The notes beneath the pieces are model-generated. The model searched no databases, had not been told where the DNA came from, and saw only the letters and a list, made by a program, of their open reading frames with translations. A program made the translations under genes and the position numbers. DNA of 63,932 bases, counting the filler, from Lama guanicoe (Eukaryota): assembly GCA_013239625.1 (NCBI GenBank). It is 77 parts of 77 records of this genome, joined end to end, with 100 filler letters (N's around TTAATTAATTAA, not from the genome) between each part and the next. Parts side by side here need not be neighbours in the genome. Positions count along the whole stretch, not along the records: positions 21,770 to 23,034 come from MU057158.1; positions 23,135 to 23,561 come from PNXV01025534.1; positions 23,662 to 24,786 come from MU057161.1; positions 24,887 to 26,011 come from MU057162.1; positions 26,112 to 26,608 come from MU057163.1; positions 26,709 to 27,580 come from PNXV01025547.1; positions 27,681 to 28,584 come from PNXV01025548.1; positions 28,685 to 29,453 come from MU057165.1; 69 more parts are not named here. One strand, 5' to 3'. Position 1 is the first letter of the stretch, and every line of letters begins with the position of its first letter. Of the stretch, positions 21,770-62,643 are shown in pieces.

Positions 21770-23034
21770 CCTGCTTTGCCTTCGCCTGCTTCCAGGTGTT
21801 CTGAGGCCTCATCCTGTCCGTGGAAGTAACAGACCTCTCTTCGTCAAGTGTCCTGTGCCAAGGACTGTGTGAGTGGATGTTTCCATTGCTTTGTACATGG
21901 GATCGTGTGAGCGCAGTTTGCACTGCTTCTCTGCCAACTGGGCATCGATGAATCAACACTTTCCAGATACATTTCACAGAAATGTGATTTTTGTTTAGCT
22001 CTTTGTTTCTATACAGCCGTGGTGGGAGGGATTGTCCGAACACTACAGTTTTGACATTGTGTTGATATCTCATTTGCAGTCTTTAAAAAGTTTAATAGAA
22101 TTGATTTACATGTTTTGGGAGTNNNNNNNNNNNNNNNNNNNNNNNNNNNNNNNNNNNNNNNNNNNNNNNNNNNNNNNNNNNNNNNNNNNNNNNNNNNNNN
22201 NNNNNNNNNNNNNNNNNNNNNNNNNNNNNNNNNNNNNNNNNNNNNNNNNNNNNNNNNNNNNNNNNNNNNNNNNNNNNNNNNNNNNNNNNNNNNNNNNNNN
22301 NNNNNNNNNNNNNNNNNNNNNNNNNNNNNNNNNNNNNNNNNNNNNNNNNNNNNNNNNNNNNNNNNNNNNNNNNNNNNNNNNNNNNNNNNNNNNNNNNNNN
22401 NNNNNNNNNNNNNNNNNNNNNNNNNNNNNNNNNNNNNNNNNNNNNNNNNNNNNNNNNNNNNNNNNNNNNNNNNNNNNNNNNNNNNNNNNNNNNNNNNNNN
22501 NNNNNNNNNNNNNNNNNNNNNNNNNNNNNNNNNNNNNNNNNNNNNNNNNNNNNNNNNNNNNNNNNNNNNNNNNNNNNNNNNNNNNNNNNNNNNNNNNNNN
22601 NNNNNNNNNNNNNNNNNNNNNNNNNNNNNNNNNNNNNNNNNNNNNNNNNNNNNNNNNNNNNNNNNNNNNNNNNNNNNNNNNNNNNNNNNNNNNNNNNNNN
22701 NNNNNNNNNNNNNNNNNNNNNNNNNNNNNNNNNNNNNNNNNNNNNNNNNNNNNNNNNNNNNNNNNNNNNNNNNNNNNNNNNNNNNNNNNNNNNNNNNNNN
22801 NNNNNNNNNNNNNNNNNNNNNNNNNNNNNNNNNNNNNNNNNNNNNNNNNNNNNNNNNNNNNNNNNNNNNNNNNNNNNNNNNNNNNNNNNNNNNNNNNNNN
22901 NNNNNNNNNNNNNNNNNNNNGACTATTTGACCTTTAAGGTGTTCACTGATGTTCACAGAGTTTGAAGCTGGAGGAACTCTTACACTAGGAGTGGCTTGCT
23001 CTTCTCGTGCTGGCTTCATAGCAGCTCAGGTAGT
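21770..23034 (-). repeat. Copy of the multicopy >=3.5-kb macro-repeat (piece C)
   Basis: 21770-22010 matches 26366-26608; reverse complement of 22921-23034 matches 62248-62360 and 61941-62010. Confidence 0.88.
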
Positions 23035-24886
23035 NNNNNNNNNNNNNNNNNNNNNNNNNNNNNNNNNNNNNNNNNNNNTTAATTAATTAANNNNNNNNNN
23101 NNNNNNNNNNNNNNNNNNNNNNNNNNNNNNNNNNGTTTGGTCCTCCTTTTATTTGGTGACAAATGCTCCCTTATTAAATTTGTATCATTGTTTTGAAGAA
23201 GTGAGATGCGAATTGATTTATGCAGCTGCTGAGGGATTCTTTTCATGGAGTATTTAAACTTGTAAAGTCAAATTCTGCGGCAACTTGCAAGATTCCTGCT
23301 TTTATACAAACGTGCTCGGCACGTGGTTCCTGGCTGTCGCTGTGTGACGTGCGTGACGGCGCTTCCTGGCCGGCGGTCACTGGTGAGGAAGTGGCCGGCT
23401 CGGGACTGCAGGGGACGCTGTTGGAAGAAACAGTCACCGTTTGGTTCTTTAATTTTTTTTTTTTTGCATTCAAGTTCCCCATGCCATTTACATTACTTTG
23501 CCTTCATAAAGAGGCAGAATTGGGTCTAAAATCCATGCCACTATTTTGTTCCCTTTACGAGNNNNNNNNNNNNNNNNNNNNNNNNNNNNNNNNNNNNNNN
23601 NNNNNTTAATTAATTAANNNNNNNNNNNNNNNNNNNNNNNNNNNNNNNNNNNNNNNNNNNNTCCAAATGGTGTCATCCAGCAGGGACCTTAAGTGAGGCA
23701 CCCAAGCTCCAGGGTTGGTTTCTTCCATCAGCCCTTAAACTTCCTTGGGAGCCAGGACTGTCTCATTGCCCCAAGGATCCCTAATGCCTAGTGAGATTTC
23801 TGATACAGCTGGTACTTAATGAGCGGTCAAATGGAAAAACCTGATTAAAGAAAAGGCCCTCATTTTTCAGACATGCCTACTTGAGTACATAGGGTAAAAT
23901 GACATGTCTTCTTGGATTTGCTGTCAAATACCTCAACAAAGGACAAATAAAAGAACAAAGGTCTGAATAAAGGAAATATGGAAAAGTATGTGAATTCATT
24001 AATCTGGGTGATGGGCTTACTCTACTATACTTACTGATGTATACTTAAGTTAGTTTATAATTTTACTGTCATTAGCTGAATAGCAAGTATTAATACTTAT
24101 TAATTGAAATCCTTAGAACTGACCAAACTTACCCTACACAAAATCCTTAATATCCAAGTAGTCTGTCTTACAGAAATCTTTTCCCACAAAGACAGGAAAA
24201 AGTGGAAAGGCAAATCCGTGCAGTATTTCCACATTGTCAAAAGACCAAAGGCCGACACAAAACAAGAGATTGCAGAAAAGATAAAGGGGCTGAAATCAAT
24301 GTCTGAAAAACCTAGCTAAGAATCCTAAATGGCCGAACTTCACTAACCTCAGCACTGCCGCATCAAGAATGGAGCAAATAGCACCTAGNNNNNNNNNNNN
24401 NNNNNNNNNNNNNNNNNNNNNNNNNNNNNNNNNNNNNNNNNNNNNNNNNNNNNNNNNNNNNNNNNNNNNNNNNNNNNNNNNNNNNNNNNNNNNNNNNNNN
24501 NNNNNNNNNNNNNNNNNNNNNNNNNNNNNNNNNNNNNNNNNNNNNNNNNNNNNNNNNNNNNNNNNNNNNNNNNNNNNNNNNNNNNNNNNNNNNNNNNNNN
24601 NNNNNNNNNNNNNNNNNNNNNNNNNNNNNNNNNNNNNNNNNNNNNNNNNNNNNNNNNNNNNNNNNNNNNNNNNNNNNNNNNNNNNNNNNNNNNNNNNNNN
24701 NNNAGGAAAAGGCAATATATCGCATGGAAAACCGTCGTAAACTGCAACACAAGAAAATGAAAATGACAGTGAGCAGCCCGTGAAGCNNNNNNNNNNNNNN
24801 NNNNNNNNNNNNNNNNNNNNNNNNNNNNNNTTAATTAATTAANNNNNNNNNNNNNNNNNNNNNNNNNNNNNNNNNNNNNNNNNNNN

Positions 24887-26011
24887 ATTCAGTATTCTGT
24901 AATATATATTCGAAATTCTGTGTTCCGCATTCTATCTTCTAAATTGTATACCCAGTATTCGGTATTCTATATTCTATATTCTGTGTTCTTCATTCTATAT
25001 TCTATATTCTGTATTCATTATTCTGTATTCTATATTCTAAATTCTGTGTTCTGCATTCCATGTTCTAAATTCTGTTTTCTATATTCTCTCTCCTATATAC
25101 TATATTTTGTGTCCTTCATTCTATATTCTACATTCTATATTCTGCATTCCGTATTCTATATTCTAATTTCTGTGTTCTACATTCTATACTCTAAATTCTA
25201 TCTTCAGTATTCTGTATTCTGTATTCTAAATTCTGTGTTCTGCATTCCATGTTNNNNNNNNNNNNNNNNNNNNNNNNNNNNNNNNNNNNNNNNNNNNNNN
25301 NNNNNNNNNNNNNNNNNNNNNNNNNNNNNNNNNNNNNNNNNNNNNNNNNNNNNNNNNNNNNNNNNNNNNNNNNNNNNNNNNNNNNNNNNNNNNNNNNNNN
25401 NNNNNNNNNNNNNNNNNNNNNNNNNNNNNNNNNNNNNNNNNNNNNNNNNNNNNNNNNNNNNNNNNNNNNNNNNNNNNNNNNNNNNNNNNNNNNNNNNNNN
25501 NNNNNNNNNNNNNNNNNNNNNNNNNNNNNNNNNNNNNNNNNNNNNNNNNNNNTCTATATTCTGTATTCAGTATTCTGTATTCTATATTCTACGTTCTGTG
25601 TTCTGCATTCCATTTTCTAAATTCAGGGTTCTATATTCTGTATTCTCTATTCTATATTCTGTTTTGTACAGTCTATTTTCTAAATTATATTTTCTGTATT
25701 CCGTATTCTATATTCTAAATTTTGTGTTCTACATTCTATATTCTAAATTCTTTATAGAGTATTGTGTATTCTGTACTCTAAATTCTGGGTTCTGCATTCC
25801 ATGTTTTAAATTCTGGGTTCTGTATTCTGTTTCCCATATTCCATATTCTGTGTTCTACATTCTATTTTCTGTATTCTACATTATGCATTCCTTATACTAT
25901 ATTCTATATTCTGTGTTCTACATTCTATATTCTAAATTCTTTATAGAGTATTGTGTATTCTGTACTCTAAATTCTGGGTTCTGCATTCCATGTTTTAAAT
26001 TCTGGGTTCTG
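24887..26011 (+). repeat. Heptamer satellite showing a 189-bp (27 x 7) higher-order repeat
   Basis: TTTATAGAGTATTGTGTATTCTGTACTCTAAATTCTGGG at 25751 and 25940; 63-aa period in the spurious ORF. Confidence 0.95.
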
Positions 26012-26111
26012 NNNNNNNNNNNNNNNNNNNNNNNNNNNNNNNNNNNNNNNNNNNNTTAATTAATTAANNNNNNNNNNNNNNNNNNNNNNNNNNNNNNNNN
26101 NNNNNNNNNNN

Positions 26112-26608
26112 CCCTCCCTGAACGCTGCCTCTGCTACCTCAAATTAGGCAGCTCGGATCTCCATCTCAGAATCAACTGTTGGGATATTTTGCACTGGATT
26201 CTTTGAGTTCTGTCAGCCAAGCATCTGCTGTGCACTCTTCTAACACTCAGCGCATCACCTTCAGTCCCATGTCTCTTGTCCGCTTGAGAGTGTGCGTCCA
26301 AGTTAAGAGAGTTTCACCTTTACTGCTCCATCAACAGGGCTCAGACCATGCACTGGTATCCATTCCCTGCTTTTCCTTCTCCTGCTTCCAGGTGTTCTGA
26401 GGCCTNNNNNNNNNNNNNNNNNNNNNNNNNNNNNNNNNNNNNGGCAAGTGTCCTGTGCCAAGGGCTGGGTGAGTGGATGTTTCCATTGCTGTGTTCATGG
26501 GAGCGAGTGAGCGCAGGTTGCACTGCTTCTCTGTCAAATGGGCATCGATGAATCATCAATTTCTAGATACATTTCACAGAAATGTGATTTTTTTTATCTC
26601 TTTGTTTC
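26112..26608 (-). repeat. Macro-repeat piece D
   Basis: Overlaps piece C (21770-22010) and piece E (53087-53180). Confidence 0.88.
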
Positions 26609-27680: not shown

Positions 27681-28584
27681 TGCTGGAGAAACACTTACTC
27701 TGGATTCTCAGTCGGTTTCCTAGTGCCAGCTGGAAGTTCCTGCAGTTTTCACCGTAAAACCGACTTGGAGCTTGTACCTCCACATATATATGTATGGAGT
27801 GTAGTTTGCAAATAAAGAGAAACCTTGTTCTCCCAACAAGGTAGGTGAAGTACGGCTTTCACAAACGCTTAACCCTCAAATCTGAGCATGAGGGGAGACG
27901 TTCGTTCATCTTGTACAAAGGGAACAGTTTGCAGGAGAAACACTTTCTCTTGTTTCTCAGTCTGTTTCCTAGAGCCGGTTTGAAGTTCCTGCAGTTTTCA
28001 CTGTAAAACCGAGTTGGAGCTTGTACCTCCCCATATATATGTATGGAGTGGTGTCTGCAACTGAAGAGAAATTTTGTGTCCCCAACAACCTAGGTGAAGG
28101 ATGGCTTTCACACACACTTATCTCTCAAAACTGAGCATGTGGAGAGACGTTCATTCATCTACAAAAAGGGAACATGTTGCAGGAGAGACAATAACTCTGG
28201 TTTCTCAGTCTGTTTCCAAGTGCCGGTATGAAGTTTCTGGAGTTTTCGCTGTAAAACCGAGTTGGTTCTTGTACCTCCCCATATATATGTATGGAGTGGT
28301 GTCTGCAACTGAATAGAAACTTTGTGTTCCCTTTTTAAAACGGCTTTCACACACGCTTAACTCTCAAAACTGAGCATGTGGAGAGATGTTCGTTCATCTA
28401 GCACAAAGGGAACAGTTTGCAGGAGAAACACTTACTCTGGATTCTCAGTCTGTTTCCTAGTGCCGGTTTGAAGTTCCTGCACTTTTCACCGTAAAACCGA
28501 GTTGGAGAATGTACCTCCCCATATATATATATGGGGGGGAATTTGCAACTGAAGAGAAAATTTGTGTTCCCTACAATCTAGGTG
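27681..28584 (+). repeat. About 249-bp satellite array fragment
   Basis: GTAAAACCGA at 27754, 28003, 28251, 28491 (249, 248, 240 bp). Confidence 0.95.
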
Positions 28585-28684: not shown

Positions 28685-29453
28685 TATAGAATACAGAATA
28701 CTGAATAGAGAATTTAGAATATAGAATGTAAAAAAAAGAATTTAGGGTATAGATTAACGAATGCAGAATATAGAATTTAGAATACAGAATGAAGAACACA
28801 GTATATAGAATATTGAATAGAGAATATAGAACTCAGAATTTAGAACATAGAATGCAGAACACAGAATTTAGAATGTAGAATACAGAACACTGAATATAGA
28901 GCTTATAATATAGAATGTAGAACACAGAATATAAAATAGAGGATAGAGAAAATAGAAGCCAGAATNNNNNNNNNNNNNNNNNNNNNNNNNNNNNNNNNNN
29001 NNNNNNNNNNNNNNNNNNNNNNNNNNNNNNNNNNNNNNNNNNNNNNNNNNNNNNNNNNNNNNNNNNNNNNNNNNNNNNNNNNNNNNNNNNNNNNNNNNNN
29101 NNNNNNNNAACACAGAATATAGAATATAGAATAGAGAATATAGAACACAGAATTAAGAACATGGAATACAGAGCACACAATTTAGAATACAGAATACAGA
29201 ATACTGAATATAGAATTTACAGCATAGAATGTAGAACACAGAAATTAGATTATAGAGTACGGAATGCAGAATAAATTTTTTAGAATATAGAATGAAGAAC
29301 ACAGTATAAATAGTATAGCACAGAGAATATAGAACACAGAATTTAAATCATGGGATGCAGAACACAGAATTTACAAAATAGAATACAGAATACTGAATAT
29401 AGTATTAAAATATAGAATGTAGAACACAGAGTATAGAATATACAATACTGAAT
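28685..29453 (-). repeat. Heptamer satellite fragment (GAA strand shown)
   Basis: 7-bp GAA periodicity; 28720-28965 closely matches 54560-54830. Confidence 0.97.
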
Positions 29454-29553
29454 NNNNNNNNNNNNNNNNNNNNNNNNNNNNNNNNNNNNNNNNNNNNTTA
29501 ATTAATTAANNNNNNNNNNNNNNNNNNNNNNNNNNNNNNNNNNNNNNNNNNNN

Positions 29554-29678
29554 TCTATATTCTTAATCCTATATTCAGAATTCAGTATTCTTTATTCTAT
29601 ATTCTGTGTTCTGCATTCCATATTCTAAAATCTATATTCAGTATTCTGTATTCTTTATTCTAAGTTTTGTGTTCTGCA
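29554..29678 (+). repeat. Heptamer satellite fragment
   Basis: 7-bp TTC periodicity. Confidence 0.95.
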
Positions 29679-29785: not shown

Positions 29786-29791
29786 TTTATT
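29786..29791 (-). promoter_or_regulatory. AATAAA polyadenylation signal of the HSFY copy
   Basis: About 95 nt downstream of the HSFY stop codon on the same strand. Confidence 0.6.
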
Positions 29792-30366: not shown

Positions 30367-31084
30367 TAGGAAACAGACTGAGAAACCAGAGTAAGTGTTT
30401 CCCCTGCAACGCGTTTCTATTGTGCTGGATGAACGAACGTCTCTCCACATGCTCAGTTTTGAGAGATAAGTGTGTGTGAAAACCGTCCTTCACTTAGTTA
30501 GCAGGGAACACAAAGATTCTTTTCAGTAGCAAATTCCACTCCATACATATATATGGGGAGGTACAAGCTCCAACCCGNNNNNNNNNNNNNNNNNNNNNNN
30601 NNNNNNNNNNNNNNNNNNNNNNNNNNNNNNNNNNNNNNNNNNNNNNNNNNNNNNNNNNNNNNNNNNNNNNNNNNNNNNNNNNNNNNNNNNNNNNNNNNNN
30701 NNNNNNNNNNNNNNNNNNNNNNNNNNNNNNNNNNNNNNNNNNNNNNNNNNNNNNNNNNNNNNNNNNNNNNNNNNNNNNNNNNNNNNNNNNNNNNNNNNNN
30801 NNNNNNNNNNNNNNNNNNNNNNNNNNNNNNNNNNNNNNNNNNNNNNNNNNNNNNNNNNNNNNNNNNNNNNNNNNNNNNNNNNNNNNNNNNNNNNNNNNNN
30901 NNNNNNNNNNNNNNNNNNNNNNNNCCCGTTCCCTTTGTGTTGGATGAACGAACGTCTCTCCACATGCTCAGTTCTGAGAGATAAGTGTGTGTGAATGCCG
31001 TCCTTCACCTAGTTTGAAGGGAACACAAATTTTCTTTTCAGTAGCAAATTCCACTCCATACATATATATGAGGAGGTACAAGCT
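30367..31084 (-). repeat. About 249-bp satellite fragment
   Basis: Reverse complement of the 27681-28584 monomer (GATGAACGAACGTCTCTCCACATGCTCAG, CCATACATATATATG). Confidence 0.95.
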
Positions 31085-31184: not shown

Positions 31185-31976
31185 ATGTTTTAATTTCTGG
31201 GTTCTGTATACTCTATTATATATTCTGTGTTCTTCACTTTATGTTCTAAATTCAATATTCAGTATACAGTATTCTATATTCCAAATTCTGTGTTCTGCAT
31301 CCATGTTCTAAGTTCTGTGTTATGATTTCTGTTTACCATATACTATATTCTGTGTTCTACATTCTATATTCTGTATTCTATNNNNNNNNNNNNNNNNNNN
31401 NNNNNNNNNNNNNNNNNNNNNNNNNNNNNNNNNNNNNNNNNNNNNNNNNNNNNNNNNNNNNNNNNNNNNNNNNNNNNNNNNNNNNNNNNNNNNNNNNNNN
31501 NNNNNNNNNNNNNNNNNNNNNNNNNNNNNNNNNNNNNNNNNNNNNNNNNNNNNNNNNNNNNNNNNNNNNNNNNNNNNNNNNNNNNNNNNNNNNNNNNNNN
31601 NNNNNNNNNNNNNNNNNNNNNNNNNNNNNNNNNNNNNNNNNNNNNNNNNNNATATTCTAAATTCAGTGTTCTGCATTCCATGTTCTAAATTCTGGGTTCT
31701 ATATTCTCTATTCTCTATTCTATATTCTGTGTTCTTCATTGTATATTCTACATTCTATATTCTGCATTCCGTATACTATATTCTATATACTGTGTTCTAC
31801 ATTCTATATTCTAAATTCTATATTCGTATTCTGTATTCTATATTCTTAATTCTGTGTTCTAATTTCCATGTTCTAAATTCTGAGTTCTCTATTCTCTATT
31901 CTTTATTCTATATTCTCTGTCCTTCAATCTATATTCTAAATTCTATTTTCAGTATTCTCTATTCAATATTCTAAAT
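31185..31976 (+). repeat. Heptamer satellite fragment
   Basis: 7-bp TTC periodicity. Confidence 0.97.
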
Positions 31977-32076: not shown

Positions 32077-32936
32077 TTCTGAGTGTGGGGAGGTTCCTCA
32101 AACTGACAGCAGCTCCTGGGTTCTAATAGTATTCCTTAGCTTCTGTTCCCTGAGTGTTCCTTTAGGCGAGGCCATGAGGGAAAGCTGGGGGTTGGGCTTG
32201 GCGGCCAACTAGCAGTGAGTGCCCCCTGATCCACTGAGGAAGTACCTAGAGGACTTCTCCCTGAACGGAACACCTTTTCCTCCATTCATCTGGGTGCAGT
32301 GGGGCTGCACACCTCTCCCACACCTAAGAATGTGTTCTGGAATTCTGAGTGCAGGGAAGTTCCTCCNNNNNNNNNNNNNNNNNNNNNNNNNNNNNNNNNN
32401 NNNNNNNNNNNNNNNNNNNNNNNNNNNNNNNNNNNNNNNNNNNNNNNNNNNNNNNNNNNNNNNNNNNNNNNNNNNNNNNNNNNNNNNNNNNNNNNNNNNN
32501 NNNNNNNNNNNNNNNNNNNNNNNNNNNNNNNNNNNNNNNNNNNNNNNNNNNNNNNNNNNNNNNNNNNNNNNNNNNNNNNNNNNNNNNNNNNNNNNNNNNN
32601 NNNNNNNNNNNNNNNNNNNNNNNNNNNNNNNNNNNNNNNNNNNNNNNNNNNNNNNNNNNNNNNNNNNNNNNNNNNNNNNNNNNNNNNNNNNNNNNNNNNN
32701 NNNNNNNNNNNNNNNNNNNNNNNNNNNNNTGGGCTCTAAATCCAAGTATTAGCTAGTGCTTCTCCATGGGATTTGGAGGTTATTAACCAAAAACCCACAA
32801 CATGGGAATACCTGTGCTCCTTGAAAAATGCGTTGACTCTGTATCCCCACCTCCAGAACACATATGCAGAAGTGTTCTGTTATCCTAAGTGTGGGCTGGC
32901 ACTTTTAGGTTACAGAAGCGGCTGGGTTCTAATAGA
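32077..32936 (+). repeat. Divergent multimeric 267-related satellite
   Basis: TTCTGAGTG at 32077 and 32343 (266 bp); 32320-32366 matches reverse complement of 16050-16100. Confidence 0.85.
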
Positions 32937-36887: not shown

Positions 36888-37784
36888 CTATGTCTGTTTC
36901 TGACGAGGGATTTCTGTCCCCCTGTCTTCACAGTCACTCATGCGTCCCTCTGCATTATGTAGTCTGCTTAGGACTGAATTTTAGCCTTGATATTATCTCA
37001 TCCATTGAGTTTTCTGATATTATTTGGCTCGTCTTTCGACTTTCTCTTCCCCTTTTCTGGTATTCTGCCTTTTGTGATTCTGAGACCCTGTTGTTCTTCA
37101 GTGTTTCCCTCACCTCTGTTTTCAATACTTGCTGTGGTAGCGTTTTTCATTCTAGTTGTTTGAAAGCTTATCTTTTGGGCCTTCAGTCTCTTTGGAACTG
37201 AAAATGGTACTTCCTGTTTCTTTTACTGTACTTCTTCATCTCTACTGGTCAGGTAATATCAGGTATCTAATGCAGAATTCTAGGNNNNNNNNNNNNNNNN
37301 NNNNNNNNNNNNNNNNNNNNNNNNNNNNNNNNNNNNNNNNNNNNNNNNNNNNNNNNNNNNNNNNNNNNNNNNNNNNNNNNNNNNNNNNNNNNNNNNNNNN
37401 NNNNNNNNNNNNNNNNNNNNNNNNNNNNNNNNNNNNNNNNNNNNNNNNNNNNNNNNNNNNNNNNNNNNNNNNNNNNNNCACATTTATTATGCTGATCTCT
37501 CAATTCTGAAAGTGCACAGGACACTTCCTCTTGTGGAAATAAAGCTTCTAAAGTTTCTCAGCTCTGCATTTGGCTCTATTTCATTTTGGAGTGTTACCAA
37601 AACAGCAAACTGAGAGTGTGCTTGTGCTCTCTAGTTCCATGGGAATGTCCCAATGAAACTGGTTCTTCCCAGAGCTTGTCTGTCTACAGAAACACCAGTG
37701 GAAACATACGTATGGATGTCATATATCAGTGCCTTCTGGAATGATCCCGCAGACTGACCTTGGTGTCCTTTGTGCCGTACCATT
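36888..37784 (-). repeat. Macro-repeat piece G (includes L1 ORF1 relic)
   Basis: 36888-37284 matches reverse complement of 50375-50775; 37480-37784 matches 48807-49103. Confidence 0.9.
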
Positions 37785-41217: not shown

Positions 41218-41936
41218 AAGCGCACTCACACTATGCTCTTCTGGAAACACTCCAAAATAACATAGAATAGAATACAGAGCTAAGAACCTTTAGAAGCTCC
41301 ATTTCCACCAGAGGAAGTGTCCTGTGCTCTTTCAGATTTTTGAGACAACCGTAATCAAAATGAGGTTANNNNNNNNNNNNNNNNNNNNNNNNNNNNNNNN
41401 NNNNNNNNNNNNNNNNNNNNNNNNNNNNNNNNNNNNNNNNNNNNNNNNNNNNNNNNNNNNNNNNNNNNNNNNNNNNNNNNNNNNNNNNNNNNNNNNNNNN
41501 NNNNNNNNNNNNNNNNNNNNNNNNNNNNNNNNNNNNNNNNNNNNNNNNNNNNNNNNNNNNNNNNNNNNNNNNNNNNNNNNNNNNNNNNNNNNNNNNNNNN
41601 NNNNNNNNNNNNNNNNNNNNNNNNNNNNNNNNNNNNNNNNNNNNNNNNNNNNNNNNNNNNNNNNNNNNNNNNNNNNNNNNNNNNNNNNNNNNNNNNNNNN
41701 NNNNNNNNNNNNNAAATGGAGGTGAGGGAAACACTGAAGAACAACAGTGTCTCAGAATCACAAAAGGCAGAATACCAGAAAAGGGGAAGAGAAAGCCTAA
41801 AGACGAGCCAAATAATATCGGAAAACTCAGTGGATGAGAAAATATCACGGCTAACATTCCGTCCTAAGCAGAATAGATATTGCAGAAGGACGCGTGAATG
41901 ACATTGAAGACAGGGGAACACAAATCCCTCGGTCAG
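41218..41936 (+). repeat. Macro-repeat piece H
   Basis: 41218-41350 matches 50053-50139 and reverse complement of 48815-48940; 41714-41936 matches 50539-50763. Confidence 0.9.
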
Positions 41937-48591: not shown

Positions 48592-49179
48592 GTAATATCA
48601 GGTATCTAATGTAGACTTCTATGGCTTTGTTATGTGAAAAGTTTAGACTCTTGCCTCTACGCAATTCCATGGGGTTCCTGTGAGGACTATTTCTCCTAGA
48701 CATTGATGCCATGTCCTGTTCCTGTGTGTGTTGTCTGGTACACCTCCAATTGCTGNNNNNNNNNNNNNNNNNNNNNNNNNNNNNNNNNNNNNNNNNNNNN
48801 NNNNNNTTATGCTTATCTTAAATTTCTGAAAGTGCACAGGACACTTCCTCTTGTGGAAATGAAACTTCTAAAGGTTCTCAGCTCTGCATTCTGTTCTGTG
48901 TCATTTTGGAGTGTTTCCAAAACAGCCAACTGAGAGTGCGTTTGTGCTTTGTAGTGCCACGGGAATGTCCCAATTAATCCAGTTCTTCCCACAGATTCTC
49001 TGTTTACAGAAACACCATTGGAAGCAGATCTATTTATGTTACACATCAGGGCCTGCTGGAATGATCCCGCAGACTTACCTTGGTGTCCTCGGTGCCGTAC
49101 CATTCCGGTGCCTTCGAAAATGTAGCATCAGCTTTTGGGAGATAATGCTGAAGGAAATGCTTCCTCTTCTCACGCTGTG
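48592..49179 (-). repeat. Macro-repeat piece F, containing a 69-bp exon candidate at 49079-49147
   Basis: Overlaps G, H, I and E; minus-strand ttccttcag|69 bp|gtaagt. Confidence 0.88.
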
Positions 49180-49910: not shown

Positions 49911-50976
49911 ACCAAGGTAGGTCTGCGGGATCATTCCAGCATGCCCTGATGTGTGACATTCATTAATGAGCTTCCACTGGTGTTTCAGTAGACAGAGAAG
50001 CTCTGGGAAGAACTGCTTTCATTGGGACATTCCCGTGGCACTACAAAGCACCAGCGCACTCTCAGTTTGCTTTGTTTTAAACACTCCAAAATGACATAGA
50101 GCAGAATGCAGAGCTGAGAACCTTTAGAAGCCTCATTTCNNNNNNNNNNNNNNNNNNNNNNNNNNNNNNNNNNNNNNNNNNNNNNNNNNNNNNNNNNNNN
50201 NNNNNNNNNNNNNNNNNNNNNNNNNNNNNNNNNNNNNNNNNNNNNNNNNNNNNNNNNNNNNNNNNNNNNNNNNNNNNNNNNNNNNNNNNNNNNNNNNNNN
50301 NNNNNNNNNNNNNNNNNNNNNNNNNNNNNNNNNNNNNNNNNNNNNNNNNNNNNNNNNNNTTTTCACTTAACAAAGCCCTAGAAGTCTACATTAGATACCT
50401 GATATTACCTGACCAGTAGAGATGAAGAAGTACAGTAAAAGAAACAGGAAGTACCATTTTCAGTTCCAAAGATATTGAAGGCCCAGAAGATAAGCTTTCA
50501 AACAACTAGACTGCAAAACGCTCTCCAGACCAAGTGTTGAAAATGGAGGTCTGGAAAACCCTGAAGAACAACATTGTCTCAGAATCACAAAAGGCAGAAT
50601 ATCAGACAAATGGAAGAGAAAGTCTAAAGACGATCCAAAAAGTATCAGAAAACTCAATGGATGTGATAATATCAGGGCTAAAATTCAGTCCTTAGCAGAC
50701 TAGATAATGCAGAGGGACGCGTGAATGACTGTGAAGACAGGGGAACAGAAATCCCTCGGTCAGAAGCAGACATAGGAAAGCAAGTGCAAACCAATGAAAC
50801 ATTGCTGTTGAATCCTGGGTTAAGACAGGGCATGAAAGACTAGGGTTCATAAGAGTCCCAGATGGAAAAGCAAGAGATAAAGGAACAAAAATTGTCTGAA
50901 AATATATCTGTAGAAAAATCAGACTGTAACTTGCTGAAACCCAAGAAAGAATCATCTATGCGAATTCAGGAAGTAC
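49911..50976 (+). repeat. Macro-repeat piece I; 50460-50976 is a decayed L1 ORF1 relic
   Basis: GCAGACTAGATAATGCAGAGGGA..GAAGACAGG..AGAGTCCCAGA resembles L1 ORF1 at 56475-56645; overlaps F, G, H. Confidence 0.88.
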
Positions 50977-51814
50977 NNNNNNNNNNNNNNNNNNNNNNNN
51001 NNNNNNNNNNNNNNNNNNNNTTAATTAATTAANNNNNNNNNNNNNNNNNNNNNNNNNNNNNNNNNNNNNNNNNNNNCAGCCTTTGCAGGAGACTCTTCCA
51101 TTCTGGATGTTGAAACGCACCGTCTAGTTTGCTCTCTCGGACTGGAGGATCTAGCGTCTAAAAGAGCAGCCAGCTGACAGCCATTGGCTGGCAACGCTGT
51201 TCAGGGATCGCTCCAGGCTGCAGCACTCTCCCAAGCTCACCCCTTCCCGGAGCAGCCGGCGTCCAGCGACTACTCCACGCGGAGATACATGTCCAGGCTC
51301 TTTCACTCCAGCTCAGGACAGCTTTGAATGCCCAACTCAGTTACAGCTAAATCACTTCTTGATGCTGCCCTGCAGTCTAACTTCACCCTGTGCTCAATCC
51401 GGCGTCTTTGTCTTACCCCACAGGTGTTGTTTATTCTCAGAGCACTCCCTAATCATGTTCCTGAATGTTCCTTGNNNNNNNNNNNNNNNNNNNNNNNNNN
51501 NNNNNNNNNNNNNNNNNNNNNNNNNNNNNNNNNNNNNNNNNNNNNNNNNNNNNNNNNNNNNNNNNNNNNNNNNNNNNNNNNNNNNNNNNNNNNNNNNNNN
51601 NNNNNNNNNNNNNNNNNNNNNNNNNNNNNNNNNNNNNNNNNNNNNNNNNNNNNNNNNNNNNNNNNNNNNNNNNNNNNNNNNNNNNNNNNNNNNNNNNNNN
51701 NNNNNNNNNNNNNNNNNNNNNNNNNNNNNNNNNNNNNNNNNNNNNNNNNNNNNNNNNNNNNNNNNNNNNNNNNNNNNNNNNNNNNNNNNNNNNNNNNNNN
51801 NNNNNNNNNNNNNN

Positions 51815-52223
51815 ATATATATATATATATATATATTCCTTTTCACATTCTTTTTCATTATAGGCTATTACAAGGTATTGAATATAGTTCCCTGTGCTAT
51901 ACAGTGGAAACTTGCTATTTATCTGTTTTTTATATAGTAGTATGTATCTGCAAATCCCAAACTCCCGATTTATCCCACCACACCCACCTTTCTCCACTGG
52001 TAACCGCAAGTTTGTTTTCTATGTCTACCAGTCTGTTTCTGTTTTGTAAGTAAGTTCATTTGTCTCATATTTTTATATTCCACATGTAAGTAATATCATA
52101 TGGTATTTTTCTTTCTCTTTCTGGCTTACCTCACTAAAAATGATTTTAAGGCTGAGTAATATCCCATTGTGTGGGATAACTTCTTTATCCAAGCATCTGG
52201 CAATAGACATTTAGGTTGTTTCC
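51815..52223 (-). mobile_element. Cetartiodactyl-type LINE-1 3' UTR with (TA)n
   Basis: TTTTTCATTATAGGCTATTACAAGGTATTGAATATAGTTCCCTGTGCTATACAGT..GGTAACCGCAAGTTTGTTTTCTATGTCT. Confidence 0.9.
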
Positions 52224-52323: not shown

Positions 52324-53180
52324 ATGGGGATGTCCCAATGAAACCAGTTCTTCCCAGAGCTTGTCTGTCTATAGAAACACCAGTGGAAATATATCTATGG
52401 TTGTCATACATCAGGGCCTGTTGGAATGATCCCGCAGAAGTTCCTTGGTATCCTTGGTACCATACATTGTTAATGCCACCCAAAATGCTGCATCTGATTT
52501 TGGGAGATAATGCTGAAAGAAGTGCTTTATCTTCTCACACCGTGGACTTTGACCACTTTTCCTTGTCCTCTCATCCTAGTGGCACGGGTGCACAAAGGCA
52601 ATTACAGAGCTGTTGCACATCCTGTGCCTCAAACCAAACCGTAATCCCAGCCCAGGTTATGAATGTAACAGATCCTAAAACTATTCATTCTGATTTCAAA
52701 CCCAAGGCCCCCTGGATCCCTCAGACCACATGCACGATTCCTCTGATTCAGCCCCACACGTGCTCTATTGGCAAAATGCCAAATTGGTCCCTGGTCCTGC
52801 AGATGCACTGGGTGTGGCCATGGGACATANNNNNNNNNNNNNNNNNNNNNNNNNNNNNNNNNNNNNNNNNNNNNNNNNNNNNNNNNNNNNNNNNNNNNNN
52901 NNNNNNNNNNNNNNNNNNNNNNNNNNNNNNNNNNNNNNNNNNNNNNNNNNNNNNNNNNNNNNNNNNNNNNNNNNNNNNNNNNNNNNNNNNNNNNNNNNNN
53001 NNNNNNNNNNNNNNNNNNNNNNNNNNNNNNNNNNNNNNNNNNNNNNNNNNNNNNNNNNNNNNNNNNNNNNNNNNNNNNNNNNNNNNGTCAGTCAAGCTGT
53101 GCACTCTTCTAAAACTCAGCGCATAACCGTGAATCCCAAGTCTCCTGTCCGGTTGAGAGTGTGCGTCCAAGTAAAACAGA
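52324..53180 (-). repeat. Macro-repeat piece E
   Basis: 52324-52545 matches 48960-49179; 53087-53180 matches 26211-26310. Confidence 0.88.
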
Positions 53181-53280: not shown

Positions 53281-54177
53281 TCTAGGCTGCTCTCCCAGGT
53301 AGACAGGCACACAGAGACACTCTAGGCGGTACTCCCAGCTACACAGGCACACAGAGACACTCTAGGCTGCTCTCCCAGGTAGACAGGCACACAGANNNNN
53401 NNNNNNNNNNNNNNNNNNNNNNNNNNNNNNNNNNNNNNNNNNNNNNNNNNNNNNNNNNNNNNNNNNNNNNNNNNNNNNNNNNNNNNNNNNNNNNNNNNNN
53501 NNNNNNNNNNNNNNNNNNNNNNNNNNNNNNNNNNNNNNNNNNNNNNNNNNNNNNNNNNNNNNNNNNNNNNNNNNNNNNNNNNNNNNNNNNNNNNNNNNNN
53601 NNNNNNNNNNNNNNNNNNNNNNNNNNNNNNNNNNNNNNNNNNNNNNNNNNNNNNNNNNNNNNNNNGCACTCCCAGCAGGCACACAGAGACACTCTAGGCT
53701 GCACTCCTATTTAGACAGGGAGGGAGAGAGTCACATAGGACACTCTAGGCTGCTCTCCCAGGTAGACAGGCACACAGAGATACTCTAGGCAGCACTCCCA
53801 GGTAGACAGGCAAACAGACACTCTAGGTTGCACTCCCAGGTAGACAGGCACACAGAGACAGTCTAGGCCGCACTCCCAGGTAGACAGGCACACAGAGACA
53901 CTCTAGGCAGCACTTCCAGGTAGACAGGCAGGGATATAGGCACACAGAGACACTCTAGGCTGCTCTCCTAGGTAGACAGTCACAGAGAGACACTCTAGGC
54001 AGCACTCCCAGGNNNNNNNNNNNNNNNNNNNNNNNNNNNNNNNNNNNNNNNNNNNNNNNNNNNNNNNNNNNNNCACCCAGAGATAGGCTGCTCTCCCAGG
54101 TAGACAGTCAGGGAGAGAGGCACACAGTGATACTGTAGGCTGCTCTCCCAGGTCGACAGGCACACAGAGACACTCTA
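53281..54177 (+). repeat. 40-bp minisatellite TCTAGGCTGCTCTCCCAGGTAGACAGGCACACAGAGACAC with longer variants
   Basis: TCTAGG at 53281, 53321, 53361; some units carry a purine-rich insert (e.g. 53929-53941). Confidence 0.95.
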
Positions 54178-54277: not shown

Positions 54278-55175
54278 ATAGAATGTAAAAACAGAATATA
54301 GAATATAGAAAAGAGAATGCAGAATTGAGAATACACAATATAGAATGTAGAAATCAGAATATAGAATATGGAAAACAGAGAACAGAAGCCAGAATTAAAA
54401 ACATGGAATGCAGTACACAGAATTTAAAATATAGAATACAGAATACTGAATATAGAATTTAGAACATAGAATGCGGAACACAGAATTTAGAATATAATAT
54501 ACTGAATATATTATTTAGAACATGGAATGCATAACACAGAATTTAGAATATAGAATACAGAATACTGAATAGAGAATTTAGAATAAAGAATATAAAACAC
54601 AGAATTTAGAATATAGATTAACGAATGCAGAATATAGAATTTAGAAAACACAATGAAGAACACAGTATATAGAATATTGAATAGAGAATATAGAACTCAG
54701 AATTTAGAACATGGAATGCAGAACACCGAGTTTAGAATGTAGAATACAGAGTACTGAATATACAGCTTATACTATAGAATGTAGAACACAGAATATAAAA
54801 TAGAGGATAGAGAAATAGAAGCCAGAATTTATAAAATGGAATGCTGAACAAAGAATTTTGTATATAGAATACAGAATAATGAAAATAGAATTTAGAGTAT
54901 AGAATGTAGAACACAGGAATTAGAATATAGAATACGGAAAGCAGAATATAGAATGTAGAATATAGAATGAAGAACACAAAATATAGAATATACGAGAGAG
55001 AATACAGAACACAAAATTCAGAATATGGAATGCAGAACACAGAAACTAGAATATTGAATTCAGAATAATGAATACAGAATATAGAACATAGAATGAAGAA
55101 CACACAATATAGAATATAGAATACGTAATGTAGAATATAGAATACAGAATATAGAATTTAGGACACAGAATATAG
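54278..55175 (-). repeat. Heptamer satellite fragment
   Basis: 7-bp GAA periodicity; colinear with 28720-28965 and reverse complement of 24970-25250. Confidence 0.97.
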
Positions 55176-56199: not shown

Positions 56200-57033
56200 T
56201 CACAGTGCCAGAGAGGAAGGTGCAAGATGATGAAGCAGAGAAACCATTTCCAATTAAAAGGCAAGAGAAATCCTCTGAAAGTACGATCAGTGAAATAGAA
56301 AACAATAGCCTACTAGATAAAGATTTCAAAAGAAGTGTGATCAAATTAATGAAGGAAATAAAAGATAGTGTTTAGAGATNNNNNNNNNNNNNNNNNNNNN
56401 NNNNNNNNNNNNNNNNNNNNNNNNNNNNNNNNNNNNNNNNNNNNNNNNNNNNNNNNNNNNNNNNNNNNNNNNNNAGCTGACTAGATAATGCAGAGGAATG
56501 AATTAGTGACCTAGAAGACAGGACAATAGAAAGCACCCAATCAGAACAGCTATAAGAGAAACAACAAGAAACAAATGAAAATAGCATGAGGTCTTTGGGA
56601 TAATAGAAAGCATGCCAATCTTGGCATGATAGAAGTCCCAGAATGGGAGGAAATATCAAAGGGGATTGCAAAGGTGTTTGAAGAAATCATGTGTGAGAAC
56701 TTCCCAAACTGAAAGAAGAAATCAGATATCCAAGTACAGGAATCTCAGACTGTCCCAAACAGGAAGAACTCAAATAAACCCACAACAAGACATATAATTA
56801 AGATGGCCAGAGCCAAGGATAAAGAAATGATCCCAAAGGCAGCAAGAGAGTAGCAAAGAGTGAGTTACAAGGGAATCCCCAGAAGGATCACAGCTGATTT
56901 CACAACACAAATACTACAGAACAGAAGGGAGTGGCAAGATGTATTCAAAGTCCTGAATGGAAAAAATGATATACCCTAGGATAAATTAACCAGCAAGGCT
57001 ATTGTCTATGGGAGAAGGAGAGAGAAATATTTT
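56200..57033 (+). mobile_element. LINE-1 ORF1 fragment, degraded
   Basis: GAGAACTTCCCAAAC..CAAGTACAGGAATCTCAGAC..CAAGACATATAATT..CAGCTGATTTC..AGAAGGGAGTGGCAAGAT. Confidence 0.92.
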
Positions 57034-57133: not shown

Positions 57134-58041
57134 ATATTCTAAATTCTGTGTTCTGCATTCCATGATCTAAATTTTGTCTTCTCTATTCTCTACCCTACAT
57201 TCTATATTTTTTGTACTCCATTCTATATTCTACATTCTTTATTCTCTATTCCGTATACTATATTCTATATTCTGTGTTCTACAATCTATAATCTTAATTC
57301 TATATCCAGTTTTCTGTATTCTACATTCTAAATTCTTTGTTCTGCATTCCATGTCGTAAATTCTGGGTTGTTGTATTCTGTTTTCCATATTCTAAATTGT
57401 GTGTTCTATATTCTATATTCTGTATTCTATTTTCAGCATTCCGTATACTATATTCTATACTCTGTGTTCTACATTCTATATTCTAAATTCTATATTCAGT
57501 ATTATTTATTCTATATTCTAAATTCCGTGTTCTGCATCTATGTTCTAAATTCTATATTCAGTAAAAAGTATTCTATACTCTAAATTCTGTGTTCTGGATT
57601 CCATGTTCTAAATCTTATATTTAGTTTTCTGTATTCCATATTATAAATTCTGTGCTATGCATTCCATGTTCTAATTTCTTTATTCAGTATTCTATATTCT
57701 AAATTCTAAATTCTATGTTCTAAATTCTATGTTCAGTATACTGTATTATATATTCTAAATTCTGTGTTCTGCATTTCATGTTCTAAATTGTGTTTTCTGT
57801 ATACTTTTTTCCATATTCTATAATCTGTTTTCTACATTCTAAATTCTGTATCCTATATTCTGCATTCCTTATACTTTATACAATATTCTGTGGTCTACAT
57901 TCTATATTCTAAATTCTATATTCAGTATTCTGTATGCTATATTCTAAATTCTGTGTTGTGAATTCTATGTTCTTCATTCTGGGATCTATAAACTATATTC
58001 TATATTCTGTGTTCTACACTCTATATTCTAAATACTATATT
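57134..58041 (+). repeat. Heptamer satellite fragment
   Basis: 7-bp TTC periodicity. Confidence 0.97.
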
Positions 58042-58141: not shown

Positions 58142-58374
58142 TTCCTGCAAACCCCCCGAGCGTTCCCTGGCACAGAGACAGTAGGAAAATTCTCAGGGGA
58201 GACGAGCGTAGGCATTCCGTTAGAAACCAAGAGCTGCCTCCGTTGGTGGAACTTCCCCAAGCTCAGGAATCCGAAACAATTGTTAGTGCTTGGGGGAGCT
58301 CGAGAAACAACTCCACAGAGCTCTCTTCAGTCACAGGTGTTCCCTGTTATGGGAAGTCCGAGAAATACCTTCCC
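58142..58374 (-). repeat. 267-bp satellite, partial monomer
   Basis: Reverse complement of the monomer (CTCTCTTCAGTCACAGGTGTTCCCTG). Confidence 0.95.
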
Positions 58375-60066: not shown

Positions 60067-61237
60067 ATTTATTTCTCGGACTTCCCCCTAAAAGTGAACA
60101 CCTGTGACTGAAGTTTGCTGCGTTCAGTTGTCTCTCGAGCTCCCCCAAGCACAGACAATGGTACTGGAATCCTGAGTGTGGGGAGGTTCCACCAGCGGTC
60201 GGCAGCGCATGGGTTTTAACGGAATGCCTAAGCTCGTCTCCCCTGAGGGTATTCCTAATGTCTCTGTGCCAGGGAATGCTAGGGGTGTTTACAGGAAATC
60301 CCAGTGACAGAGGCTGCCTCCCCATGGTCAAGGAAGTTTTTTCTCGGACTTCCCCGAACAGGGAACACCTGTGACTGAAGAGAGCTGCGTGGAGTTGTCT
60401 CTCGAGCTCCCCCACGCACTGAAAATGGTTCCGGAATCCTGAGCGTGGGGAGGTTCCACCAACGGTCGACAGCCCGTGGGTTCTAATGGAATGCCTATGC
60501 TCGTCTCCCCAGAGGGTTTTCCTAATGTTTCTGTGCCAGGGAATGCTAGGGGGGTTTGCAGCAAATCCCAGTTACAGAGGCTGCCTCCCCATGGTCAAGG
60601 AAGTTTTTTCTCGGACTTCCCCGAACAGGGAACACCTGTGACTGAAGAGAGCTGCGTGGAGTTGTCTCTCGAGCTCCCCCACGCACTGACAATGGTTCCG
60701 GNNNNNNNNNNNNNNNNNNNNNNNNNNNNNNNNNNNNNNNNNNNNNNNNNNNNNNNNNNNNNNNNNNNNNNNNNNNNNNNNNNNNNNNNNNNNNNNNNNN
60801 NNNNNNNNNNNNNNNNNNNNNNNNNNNNNNNNNNNNNNNNNNNNNNNNNNNNNNNNNNNNNNNNNNNNNNNNNNNNNNNNNNNNNNNNNNNNNNNNNNNN
60901 NNNNNNNNNNNNNNNNNNNNNNNNNNNNNNNNNNNNNNNNNNNNNNNNNNNNNNNNNNNNNNNNNNNNNNNNNNNNNNNNNNNNNNNNNNNNNNNNNNNN
61001 NNNNNNNNNNNNNNNNNNNNNNNNNNNNNNNNNNNNNNNNNNNNNNNNNNNNNNNNNNNNNNNNNNNNNNNNNNNNNNNNNNNNNNNNNNNNNNNNNNNN
61101 NNNNNNNNNNNNNNNNNNNNNNNNNNNNNNNNNNNNNNNNNNNNNNNNNNNTCCCCATAACAAACCTGTGACTGAAGAGAGCTGTGTTGAGTTTCTCTCG
61201 AACTCCCCCACGCACAGAAAATGGTTCTGGAATTACA
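60067..61237 (+). repeat. 267-bp satellite array fragment
   Basis: AACACCTGTG at 60097, 60364, 60631 (exactly 267 bp). Confidence 0.98.
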
Positions 61238-61337
61238 NNNNNNNNNNNNNNNNNNNNNNNNNNNNNNNNNNNNNNNNNNNNTTAATTAATTAANNNNNNN
61301 NNNNNNNNNNNNNNNNNNNNNNNNNNNNNNNNNNNNN

Positions 61338-62050
61338 AGAACCTGAAAGGGCAGACAGTGGAAGATCTGCCTTTCATCAGCTTACTAGTCAGGCTCCAAG
61401 GTACTTTCAGAGTTGCCCAGTCCTGGTGAAGTCGACTTTAGGGGAGACACGAAGACAAGCTGGCCGAAAAGCTGGCTGCACGGATTGAGGAGAGATGCGA
61501 ACAGATGGATGAGAGATGTTCTGCTACAATGGAGAATACTGGCGTGGAGACAGCTGTAGAGGATACCAGGCTCAAAAGACATTCATGAGACATATTTAAC
61601 CTCGCTGATACTGGCAGAAACATACGGAGTGCCAACGTAGACTTGAGGAAGTTCCTCAATTCTCTTCTCCAAGAACGGATCCAACGTTTCTGACGTCTGA
61701 AAGAGAAGAGATGGCAGAGATGTTCAAAACGCTACTGCTCTTGGAAGTGGTCGTGAGAATCCACACGTCCCAAGGGGTATTCCCAAGCCATTCAGACCAG
61801 AATTCACCAAGCCCAGGTAAAACTTTTCCCAGGTTGGGCCTAGCTAGCAAGCACTTGCCCTTNNNNNNNNNNNNNNNNNNNNNNNNNNNNNNNNNNNNNN
61901 NNNNNNNNNNNNNNNNNNNNNNNNNNNNNNNNNNNNNAAGCCTAGAATCAGAGTTCCACCAGCTTGACAATCTGTGAACAACAGTGAACTCCTTAAAGGT
62001 GAAATAGTCTCGTCTGAAATAGATAGGAATTGAATACTTAGCTCAAACCT
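61338..62050 (+). repeat. Macro-repeat piece A
   Basis: 61803-61860 and 61941-62050 match piece B; 61941-62010 matches piece C. Confidence 0.85.
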
Positions 62051-62150
62051 NNNNNNNNNNNNNNNNNNNNNNNNNNNNNNNNNNNNNNNNNNNNTTAATT
62101 AATTAANNNNNNNNNNNNNNNNNNNNNNNNNNNNNNNNNNNNNNNNNNNN

Positions 62151-62643
62151 TTCACCAAGCCCAGGTAAGCCTTTTCCCAGGTTTGGGCCTAGCTAGCAGC
62201 ACTTGCACCTGCCTCCCCTCCACTCAGTCATCCATTTGGAAGGATCAGTACCTGAGCTGCAATGAAGCCATTACGAGAAGAGCAAGCCCCTCCTAGAATC
62301 AGAGTTCCTCCAGCTTCACACTCTGTGAACAACAGTGAACTCCTTAAAGGTCAAATAGTCTCGGCTGAAATAGAGAATACTTAGCTCACACCTAGAAACG
62401 ATGGCCTTCCGCTAGATTCAGCAAATGTGGTGTTTATGTCTTCCCTGGGGTGAAGGGAGTGTGGTAAGTGAGGGGAATCTTTGACTGAACTTGAATCTGT
62501 ATTAGGCCTCAGTTTTTCAAGACAGTATAGGTAAATAGTACAAGTGAGAAATTGAATTGTAATGTAAAAGTCACCGATGACATTAAAGACACAACTTATG
62601 TGGATCGTCTTTCACTTGCGTCAAGCCCCCGGGGGCACTATAT
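62151..62643 (+). repeat. Macro-repeat piece B
   Basis: Overlaps A and reverse complement of 22921-23034. Confidence 0.88.

What the first reader, a model, noticed from the sequence alone, without database searches (positions are those of the whole stretch)
21770..62643. Nine scattered contigs tile into one >=3.5-kb high-copy macro-repeat
Seen: pairwise overlaps give the order A 61338-62050(+), B 62151-62643(+), C 23034-21770(-), D 26608-26112(-), E 53180-52324(-), F 49179-48592(-), then G 37784-36888(-), H 41218-41936(+), I 49911-50976(+). Copies are roughly 80-90% identical by eye and end in the same L1 ORF1 relic. The rest matches no transposon I recognise. Nine of about 77 pieces implies very high copy number. 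Inference: an old, massively amplified complex unit (macrosatellite or heterochromatic-arm segmental repeat) that captured an L1 piece and gene-like sequence before amplification. This is the best candidate for an undescribed system in the window.
Basis: partly seen in the sequence, partly recalled or inferred. Interest (0 to 1): 0.75.

Follow-up and report, generated by a model that had tools for sequence, protein, structure and literature searches.

The report
Known camelid satellite hides dead gene
These fragments are copies of a large satellite repeat recently described on the short chromosome arms of alpacas and their relatives; its repeat unit turns out to be a former piece of ordinary genome, holding a broken cTAGE-like gene and a scrap of an L1 retrotransposon.

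Summary
The tiling is real: 21 of 21 overlaps among the nine contigs are colinear, at 79-96% identity. The repeat is not undescribed. It is the alpaca ~5.3-kb satellite family VpaSat08/09/11/12 (PMC13751797), mapped by FISH to the short arms of 16-20 chromosome pairs. Seven of 8 published primers land on family contigs, two amplicons come out at 552 and 741 bp against the published 543 and 734, and AT content matches. A tenth contig, 63657-63932, joins upstream of A.

What that paper's text does not mention is the anatomy. The unit holds an intronless, broken gene of the cTAGE/MIA2/TANGO1 kin (profile E 8e-34) and, about 2.6 kb downstream, a decayed L1 ORF1. All 3 copies seen share the same early stop and have lost the membrane helix.

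Best reading: a genomic segment carrying an already dead gene was tandemly amplified, before the camel-llama split, into structural heterochromatin. Known repeat, new anatomy. Surviving intact, expressed copies are not excluded (about 10%).

The parts
63657..63932 (+). Tenth contig of the family (cut by the window end), directly upstream of A at tile -286 to -11; holds the 5' flank and the start codon (63832) of the cTAGE-like gene relic
   Evidence: VpaSat08 forward primer at 63853, 1 mismatch; VpaSat11 consensus motif, 2 mismatches; profile positions 2-34, E 2e-4; database protein P0021 bridges it to A
61338..62050 (+). Contig A, tile 1-713; 61340-61860 is the body of the broken cTAGE-like ORF (stops at read-through codons 30, 34 and 83; frame change near 61680)
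62151..62643 (+). Contig B, tile 466-958; end of the gene relic and its 3' flank
   Evidence: VpaSat08 reverse primer exact; VpaSat09 consensus motif exact
21770..23034 (-). Contig C, tile 562-1826, with a 798-N gap
   Evidence: VpaSat09 and VpaSat11 primers; VpaSat08 consensus motif exact
26112..26608 (-). Contig D, tile 1587-2083
   Evidence: VpaSat09 reverse primer exact, VpaSat12 forward primer 2 mismatches
52324..53180 (-). Contig E, tile 1884-2740
   Evidence: VpaSat11 reverse primer exact, VpaSat12 forward primer 3 mismatches
48592..49179 (-). Contig F, tile 2520-3107; ends just before the L1 ORF1 start
36888..37784 (-). Contig G, tile 2595-3491; includes the 5' part of the L1 ORF1 relic
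41218..41936 (+). Contig H, tile 2756-3474; includes part of the L1 ORF1 relic
49911..50976 (+). Contig I, tile 2615-3680
   Evidence: VpaSat12 consensus motif, 1 mismatch
50420..50976 (+). Decayed L1 ORF1 (roughly codons 1-180), same strand as the gene relic; frameshifted, with stops
   Evidence: DNA against the L1 at 56475-57033: 66% over 265 nt, z 17.7 against 200 shuffles; tblastn 36% over 99 aa, E 2e-5; profile E 1.7e-6. The 5' edge is approximate

Best explanation
The contigs are separate, diverged copies of the ~5.3-kb camelid satellite monomer VpaSat08/09/11/12, which a short-read assembly could not place (shown). The monomer is a former stretch of ordinary genome: an intronless cTAGE/MIA2-like gene of about 210 codons, about 2.6 kb of downstream DNA, a piece of L1 ORF1 on the same strand, and about 1.3 kb not seen here (order and homologies shown). 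The gene was already disabled in the founder of the copies seen (inferred from a shared stop and shared loss of the membrane helix). The segment was duplicated in tandem, expanded by unequal exchange or rolling-circle-type amplification, and spread between the short arms of non-homologous chromosomes before camels and South American camelids split. Homogenisation since then has been only partial, leaving subfamilies 80-92% alike (mechanism inferred; location and species range from the paper). Today it works as bulk constitutive heterochromatin, not as a transposon or a coding array (inferred).
For: Seven of 8 published primers found at 0-3 mismatches, in the right orientation; 0 hits for 40 shuffled primers at up to 4 mismatches; the missing primer's predicted site lies in unsequenced tile 2084-2234. 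Amplicons 552 vs 543 and 741 vs 734 bp. 4 of 4 motifs from the published consensus starts match at 0-2 mismatches, with 0 expected by chance. AT 55.0% vs 54.2-55.6%. The 603-bp VpaSat08 amplicon predicts 11 missing bases between the last contig and A; database protein P0021 supplies exactly that spacing. Gene relic: 20 proteins at E<=0.001, best 2.9e-22; a profile of 17 of them hits only 3 of 462 window frames, all in A and the last contig; the member named cTAGE8 scores 221 bits on a profile built without it, shuffles at most 4.8 bits; atlas neighbours of two relatives are named TANGO1 homolog (0.93) and MIA2. The same early stop is seen in A, P0021 and P0039; best 19-residue hydropathy is 0.8-1.1 in these against 2.1-2.75 in 6 of 7 relatives, and 1.54 in the seventh. 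8870, 4716 and 1326 contigs of three public DNA-type runs lie on contig I, with depth of the same order over its L1 and non-L1 halves.
Against: The whole monomer could not be aligned: supplement cells are cut at 400 characters, no genome is held, and no longer contig was found. Tandem layout and chromosomal position rest on the paper alone. Only three copies of the gene's 5' part and one copy of its 3' part were seen. The family name rests on one named member of the 20 hits and on automatic atlas names; Pfam gave no cTAGE family. The protein-level L1 signal is modest: the 7-bp satellite gives spurious ORF1 hits with whole-frame E down to 2.6e-5.
Confidence: 0.85

Rival explanations
1. The array began as, and partly remains, a gene-coding macrosatellite like D4Z4/DUX4, RS447/USP17 or CT47: some copies keep an intact cTAGE-like ORF that is expressed in the germ line, and the broken copies are its decayed majority.
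For: A nearly complete intronless ORF with its start codon and 5' flank is in the unit. Human macrosatellites of 3-5 kb carry such genes, some with transposon relics (PMC5687341, passages). Only 3 copies were sampled from a family with thousands of variant contigs.
Against: 3 of 3 copies share the early stop and the lost membrane helix. No full-length protein closer than 47% identity appeared among the 20 hits, though clustering at 50% could hide one, and the 90%-cluster search covered only proteins of 306-2000 aa. The one run guessed to be RNA laid 3 contigs on contig I at depth about 3.5, which shows nothing about transcription.
Confidence: 0.1
2. The tile is the long 5' UTR plus ORF1 of a dispersed camelid L1 or half-L1 (HAL1-type) family.
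For: ORF1 lies on the tile's strand at its downstream end.
Against: The upstream part is a cellular gene relic with relatives in deer, squirrel, bat and tree shrew. Eight upstream pieces show no similarity to the window's ordinary L1 ORF1: none beats the best of 200 shuffles. The paper found continuous tandem arrays and block-like FISH signals. ORF1 is frameshifted in the copies seen.
Confidence: 0.03
3. The tile is a chimera of two or more related repeat families, falsely joined by the N gap in C or the short D-E overlap.
For: 515 tile positions are unsequenced and D-E is an 80-bp overlap. The paper lists four names and reports only 25-50% pairwise identity between its consensus sequences.
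Against: Published amplicons span C/D-E and D/E-F/G/I at the predicted lengths. Both sides of the C gap match consensus starts of this family. The paper found collinear dotplots and co-localised FISH, and calls the four one major family.
Confidence: 0.02

Closest known systems
Alpaca satellite family VpaSat08-5290 / 09-5280 / 11-5308 / 12-5280 (Mendoza-Cerna et al. 2026, PMC13751797)
   Same: Primer sites, amplicon lengths, consensus starts and AT content match. This is that family.
   Different: The paper's text has no mention of LINE-1, transposons, cTAGE, MIA2 or TANGO, and reports no match of the monomers to known satellites. The gene relic and L1 relic are added here.
Human gene-bearing macrosatellites D4Z4/DUX4, RS447/USP17, TAF11-like, CT47 (PMC5687341, passages seen)
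   Same: A 3-5-kb unit built around one ORF; the TAF11-like unit also carries transposon relics.
   Different: Those arrays have 4-103 copies at one or a few loci and keep an ORF. This one lies on 16-20 chromosome pairs, its copies are 80-92% alike, and the ORF is broken in the copies seen.
Common cetacean satellite (Kapitonov et al. 1998; seen only as cited in PMC9659126)
   Same: A large heterochromatic satellite of a cetartiodactyl whose monomer contains L1 sequence.
   Different: The cetacean monomer resembles the L1 3' end. Here the L1 part is ORF1 and only a minority of the unit (at least 0.55 of 5.3 kb); no homology between the two was tested.
cTAGE / MIA2 / TANGO1 family, short intronless mammalian members of about 200-290 aa
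   Same: Homology along profile positions 2-205 of 211: N-terminal segment, membrane-helix region, coiled coil.
   Different: The satellite copy has in-frame stops, a frameshift and charged residues in the helix region. It is 30-47% identical to the full-length relatives found.

Membership tests
VpaSat08/09/11/12 | Published primer sites, in amplifying orientation | tested here: met
   7 of 8 found at 0-3 mismatches; 0 hits for 40 shuffles; the eighth is predicted in an unsequenced gap
VpaSat08/09/11/12 | Amplicon lengths | tested here: met
   552 vs 543 and 741 vs 734 bp; the 603-bp product agrees with the P0021 bridge; the 493-bp product could not be measured
VpaSat08/09/11/12 | Sequence of the consensus monomers | tested here: met
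   Only the first 400 nt of each could be read; one motif from each, 4 of 4 match at 0-2 mismatches
VpaSat08/09/11/12 | AT content 54.2-55.6% | tested here: met
   55.0% over the ten contigs
VpaSat08/09/11/12 | Monomer length 5.28-5.31 kb | tested here: inconclusive
   The tile spans about 3.97 kb without closing on itself; compatible, not measured
VpaSat08/09/11/12 | Tandem arrays on short arms of 16-20 chromosome pairs | not testable with these tools
   No genome held; taken from the paper
L1 / half-L1 retrotransposon, as the whole unit | ORF1 homology | tested here: met
L1 / half-L1 retrotransposon, as the whole unit | Sequence upstream of ORF1 is an element 5' UTR | tested here: not met
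   It holds a cellular cTAGE-like gene relic; whether the part nearest ORF1 is old L1 UTR was not testable without a repeat library
L1 / half-L1 retrotransposon, as the whole unit | ORF2, poly(A) tail, target-site duplications | not testable with these tools
   The 1.3 kb after the relic is not in the tile
cTAGE/MIA2/TANGO1-like gene | Sequence homology to the family | tested here: met
   E 8e-34 to a 17-member profile; named member and atlas names
cTAGE/MIA2/TANGO1-like gene | Open frame with a membrane helix before the coiled coil | tested here: not met
   Stops and frameshift in A; hydropathy 0.8-1.1 in 3 of 3 copies
Protein-coding macrosatellite (D4Z4/RS447 type) | Intact ORF in the unit | tested here: not met
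   Broken in 3 of 3 copies seen; other copies unseen
Protein-coding macrosatellite (D4Z4/RS447 type) | Transcription of the unit | tested here: inconclusive
   One run guessed to be RNA, 3 contigs at depth about 3.5, laid on contig I and not on the gene part

The most novel reading that the evidence does not exclude
A major heterochromatic satellite of camelid short arms is a cTAGE-like gene amplicon: a germ-line gene array that expanded to thousands of copies over many chromosomes, with a minority of intact, expressed copies (or a small-RNA output aimed at the live cTAGE/MIA2 genes) still maintained. That would be a D4Z4-like array grown to the size of whole chromosome arms.
Probability: 0.1. 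Interest if true: 0.75.

Novelty: already known. Interest (0 to 1): 0.35.

Why it matters
The repeat is catalogued, so it is not a new system. The anatomy still answers something the describing paper leaves open: where the monomer came from. It looks like a case of an identifiable gene locus plus an L1 scrap turning into bulk heterochromatin. The gene relic gives a reading frame for dating the amplification against the gene's death, and a handle for finding the progenitor locus in pig or cattle. It also warns annotators of spurious cTAGE-like and L1 calls in camelid genomes. If intact copies exist, it would be a coding macrosatellite on an unusual scale.

Tried and rejected
No whole genome is held for this window. 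A 22-nt motif shared by copies gave 0 exact matches in metagenome and viral contigs, so the missing 1.3 kb and 515 nt stay unseen. Four 15-nt terms found nothing in the supplement, whose cells are cut at 400 characters; uninformative.

Rfam: 0 matches. Pfam on 73 of 80 stop-free frames of the nine contigs and J gave nothing credible except two L1 ORF1 domains in J. The read-through of A found 0 proteins among lengths 306-2000 aa; that length window excluded nearly all the true relatives. The 168-aa open frame at 52326-52829 (+) has no relatives and is not open in F or G; treated as chance.

My first DNA alignment test used scores too lenient to separate signal from shuffles and was redone. Summed contig depth (1e5-2e6) is not a copy number and is not used as one. 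Runs with small word shares (X16-X20) and the 2026 targeted RNA runs were not used as evidence; only X17 was laid. Earlier-scan look-ups by words and sequence returned nothing. Rejected: ERV or LINE end to end; tRNA or structured RNA; chance similarity.
Full report
VERDICT. The tiling is real, but the repeat is already described: it is the alpaca satellite family VpaSat08/09/11/12. What I add is the make-up of its unit, a broken cTAGE-like gene and a decayed L1 ORF1.

THE WINDOW. It is a concatenation of 77 small contigs separated by an artificial N44-12 nt-N44 linker. It is rich in tandem repeats and has no Rfam match. No whole genome is held. The camelid origin follows from the matches below; unchecked notes on the same genome agree.

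THE OBSERVATION. All-versus-all BLASTN of the 77 contigs puts the nine in one component, together with 56200-57033 (J). The other 3 of the 24 alignments involve J. Sequenced bases cover 2977 of 3680 positions; the gaps are 959-1473, 2084-2234 and 2907-2943. The weak joints are the 798-N gap inside C and the 80-bp D-E overlap. In the best-sampled stretch, copies are 79-91% alike, so they are different copies and not misassembled alleles.

IDENTIFICATION. A paper search gave PMC13751797. I read parts 1-5 of 8 (the whole main text and the start of the references) and its spreadsheet supplement, whose cells are cut at 400 characters. The slide supplement and the GenBank records could not be seen and may bear on what the authors knew. 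[quoted passage not shown]

Seven of the 8 primers for these four satellites fall on family contigs at 0-3 mismatches (12 sites); 40 shuffled primers gave 0 hits at up to 4 mismatches. The VpaSat11 pair spans 552 bp of the tile (published 543) and the VpaSat12 pair 741 bp (published 734). These amplicons cross C/D-E and D/E-F/G/I, which independently supports the weak D-E joint. The missing VpaSat09 forward primer is predicted at tile 2157-2176, inside an unsequenced gap. One motif from the start of each published consensus matches C, B, the last contig and the end of I, at 0, 0, 2 and 1 mismatches, with none expected by chance. AT content is 55.0% against 54.2-55.6% published.

A TENTH CONTIG. 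The VpaSat08 forward primer lies at 63853. The 603-bp product places contig 63657-63932 just upstream of A, with 11 bases missing between them. The tile then spans about 3.97 of 5.3 kb. The ten contigs make up 5394 of 47839 sequenced bases (11.3%); unplaced contigs over-represent repeats, so this is not a genome share.

ABUNDANCE. Fifteen of 24 listed public runs, under four coded organism labels, hold 0.32-0.68 of A's sampled words. Three DNA-type runs lay 8870, 4716 and 1326 contigs on contig I. Summed depth is of the same order (1e5-2e6) over its non-L1 and L1 halves, and loose ends at the N gap continue as in F, G and H. This is not a copy number, but it fits very many variant copies in which the L1 piece travels with its flank.

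THE L1 RELIC. J is an ordinary L1 ORF1 (Pfam Transposase_22; human ORF1p structures). I aligns to J at 66% over 265 nt (z 17.7 against 200 shuffles), and G and H at z 6.6 and 6.4. None of eight upstream pieces beats its best shuffle. ORF1 proteins match 50685-50972 at 36% over 99 aa (E 2e-5); a three-sequence profile gives E 1.7e-6. The 5' part of ORF1 is weaker: z 2.8 in I and 5.4 in G, and colinear in the alignment. Against over-reading, the 7-bp satellite yields spurious ORF1 hits with whole-frame E down to 2.6e-5, so the DNA test carries the weight. By eye, the published VpaSat12 consensus runs on in ORF1-like sequence past the end of I.

THE GENE RELIC. Reading A through with X at stops and searching 1.84 billion representatives gave 20 proteins at E<=0.001, the best 2.9e-22 at 41% identity over 160 aa. 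Those with a recorded source are from muntjac, ground squirrel, bat, tree shrew and wild camel. [quoted passage not shown] A profile of 17 of the 20 (P0011, P0016 and P0021 left out) hits 3 of 462 window frames: the last contig (positions 2-34, start codon 63832), A in one frame (40-194, E 8e-34) and A in the next frame (160-205, E 6e-6). So a nearly whole ORF of about 210 codons is present, with no intron in the part seen.

The named member scores 221 bits on a profile built without it; shuffles reach 4.8 bits. Atlas searches with two relatives return a TANGO1-homolog cluster at 0.93, and MIA2 as first structure row at TM 0.50, under the tool's naming bar. Pfam names no such family. I therefore call it cTAGE/MIA2/TANGO1-like. 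cTAGE5 retrogenes are known in primates (PMC2394760, passages); a retrocopy origin here is inferred from the lack of introns.

P0021 is 90-91% identical to both the last contig and A, and bridges them with five residues, which is exactly the 11 missing bases predicted from the amplicon. P0021, P0039 and A all stop at the same codon. Their best 19-residue hydropathy is 0.8-1.1, against 2.1-2.75 in 6 of 7 relatives and 1.54 in the seventh. The gene was thus dead in the ancestor of these three copies.

MECHANISM. Shown: the order gene relic, spacer, L1 ORF1 relic; many diverged copies; identity with the published family. From the paper: tandem arrays, short-arm location, presence in all camelids. 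Inferred: a euchromatic segment with a dead gene was duplicated in tandem, amplified and exchanged between short arms before the camel-llama split (11-25 million years ago per the paper), has been partly homogenised since, and now serves as constitutive heterochromatin. CpG observed/expected of 0.35 fits long methylation. Rivals: a still partly coding macrosatellite (0.10), a dispersed L1-type element (0.03), a chimeric tile (0.02).

COMPARISON AND NOVELTY. The repeat is known. Gene-bearing macrosatellites are a known kind (PMC5687341, passages), as are L1-containing satellites (PMC9659126, passages). The gene and L1 content is absent from the describing paper's text: 0 occurrences of LINE-1, transpos, retro, cTAGE, MIA2 or TANGO. 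PMC6598621 has no mention of satellites or cTAGE (term search). I saw no other report in the listings. These cover open-licence papers only, and one search was swamped by veterinary papers, so absence from print is only weakly shown. Interest 0.35: an ordinary identification with a useful, testable addition on the origin of a major satellite.

Noticed in passing
1704-2734, 12635-13470, 15602-16900, 32077-32936, 38822-40162, 58142-58374, 60067-61237: Seven contigs share a GC-rich tandem repeat of 267-268 bp. Probably the NOR-associated SAC-SAT; the 267-bp length of SAC-SAT is recalled, not from a call.
   Followed up: partly
13886-14345, 17993-18518, 24887-26011, 28685-29678, 31185-31976, 43945-44806, 46497-47319, 54278-55175, 57134-58041: Ten contigs of an AT-rich satellite with a 7-bp subunit and a 63-bp higher period. 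Its translation mimics the L1 ORF1 coiled coil and gives false hits.
   Followed up: partly
17001-17892, 43100-43844: GC-rich 16-bp tandem repeat; by eye it resembles the start of the published VpaSat04-5242 consensus.
   Followed up: no
27681-28584, 30367-31084: A 249-bp tandem repeat shared by two contigs; not matched to any named satellite.
   Followed up: no
53281-54177: 40-bp minisatellite.
   Followed up: no
21007-21669 (-): Open 221-codon olfactory receptor fragment (Pfam 7tm_4, E 8e-33).
   Followed up: partly
42037-42255 (-): Frame with the first half of an SH3 domain (E 2.5e-5), probably an exon.
   Followed up: no
56200-57033 (+); 62744-63556 (+): An ordinary decayed L1 ORF1, and a contig that looks like L1 ORF2 by eye (recalled; its two frames scanned had no Pfam hit).
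   Followed up: partly
547-1050, 3487-4214, 36289-36787, 51077-52223: Four contigs share another repeat, probably an interspersed element.
   Followed up: no
P0011 and P0016 (wild camel database proteins): P0011 joins a cTAGE-like N-terminal part to an aminotransferase domain and is flagged low quality; P0016 repeats the cTAGE-like N-terminus. Both may be gene-model artefacts over camelid cTAGE-like copies, and are leads to the progenitor locus.
   Followed up: no
whole window: 76 identical N44-12 nt-N44 linkers are an artefact of concatenation, not biology.
   Followed up: yes
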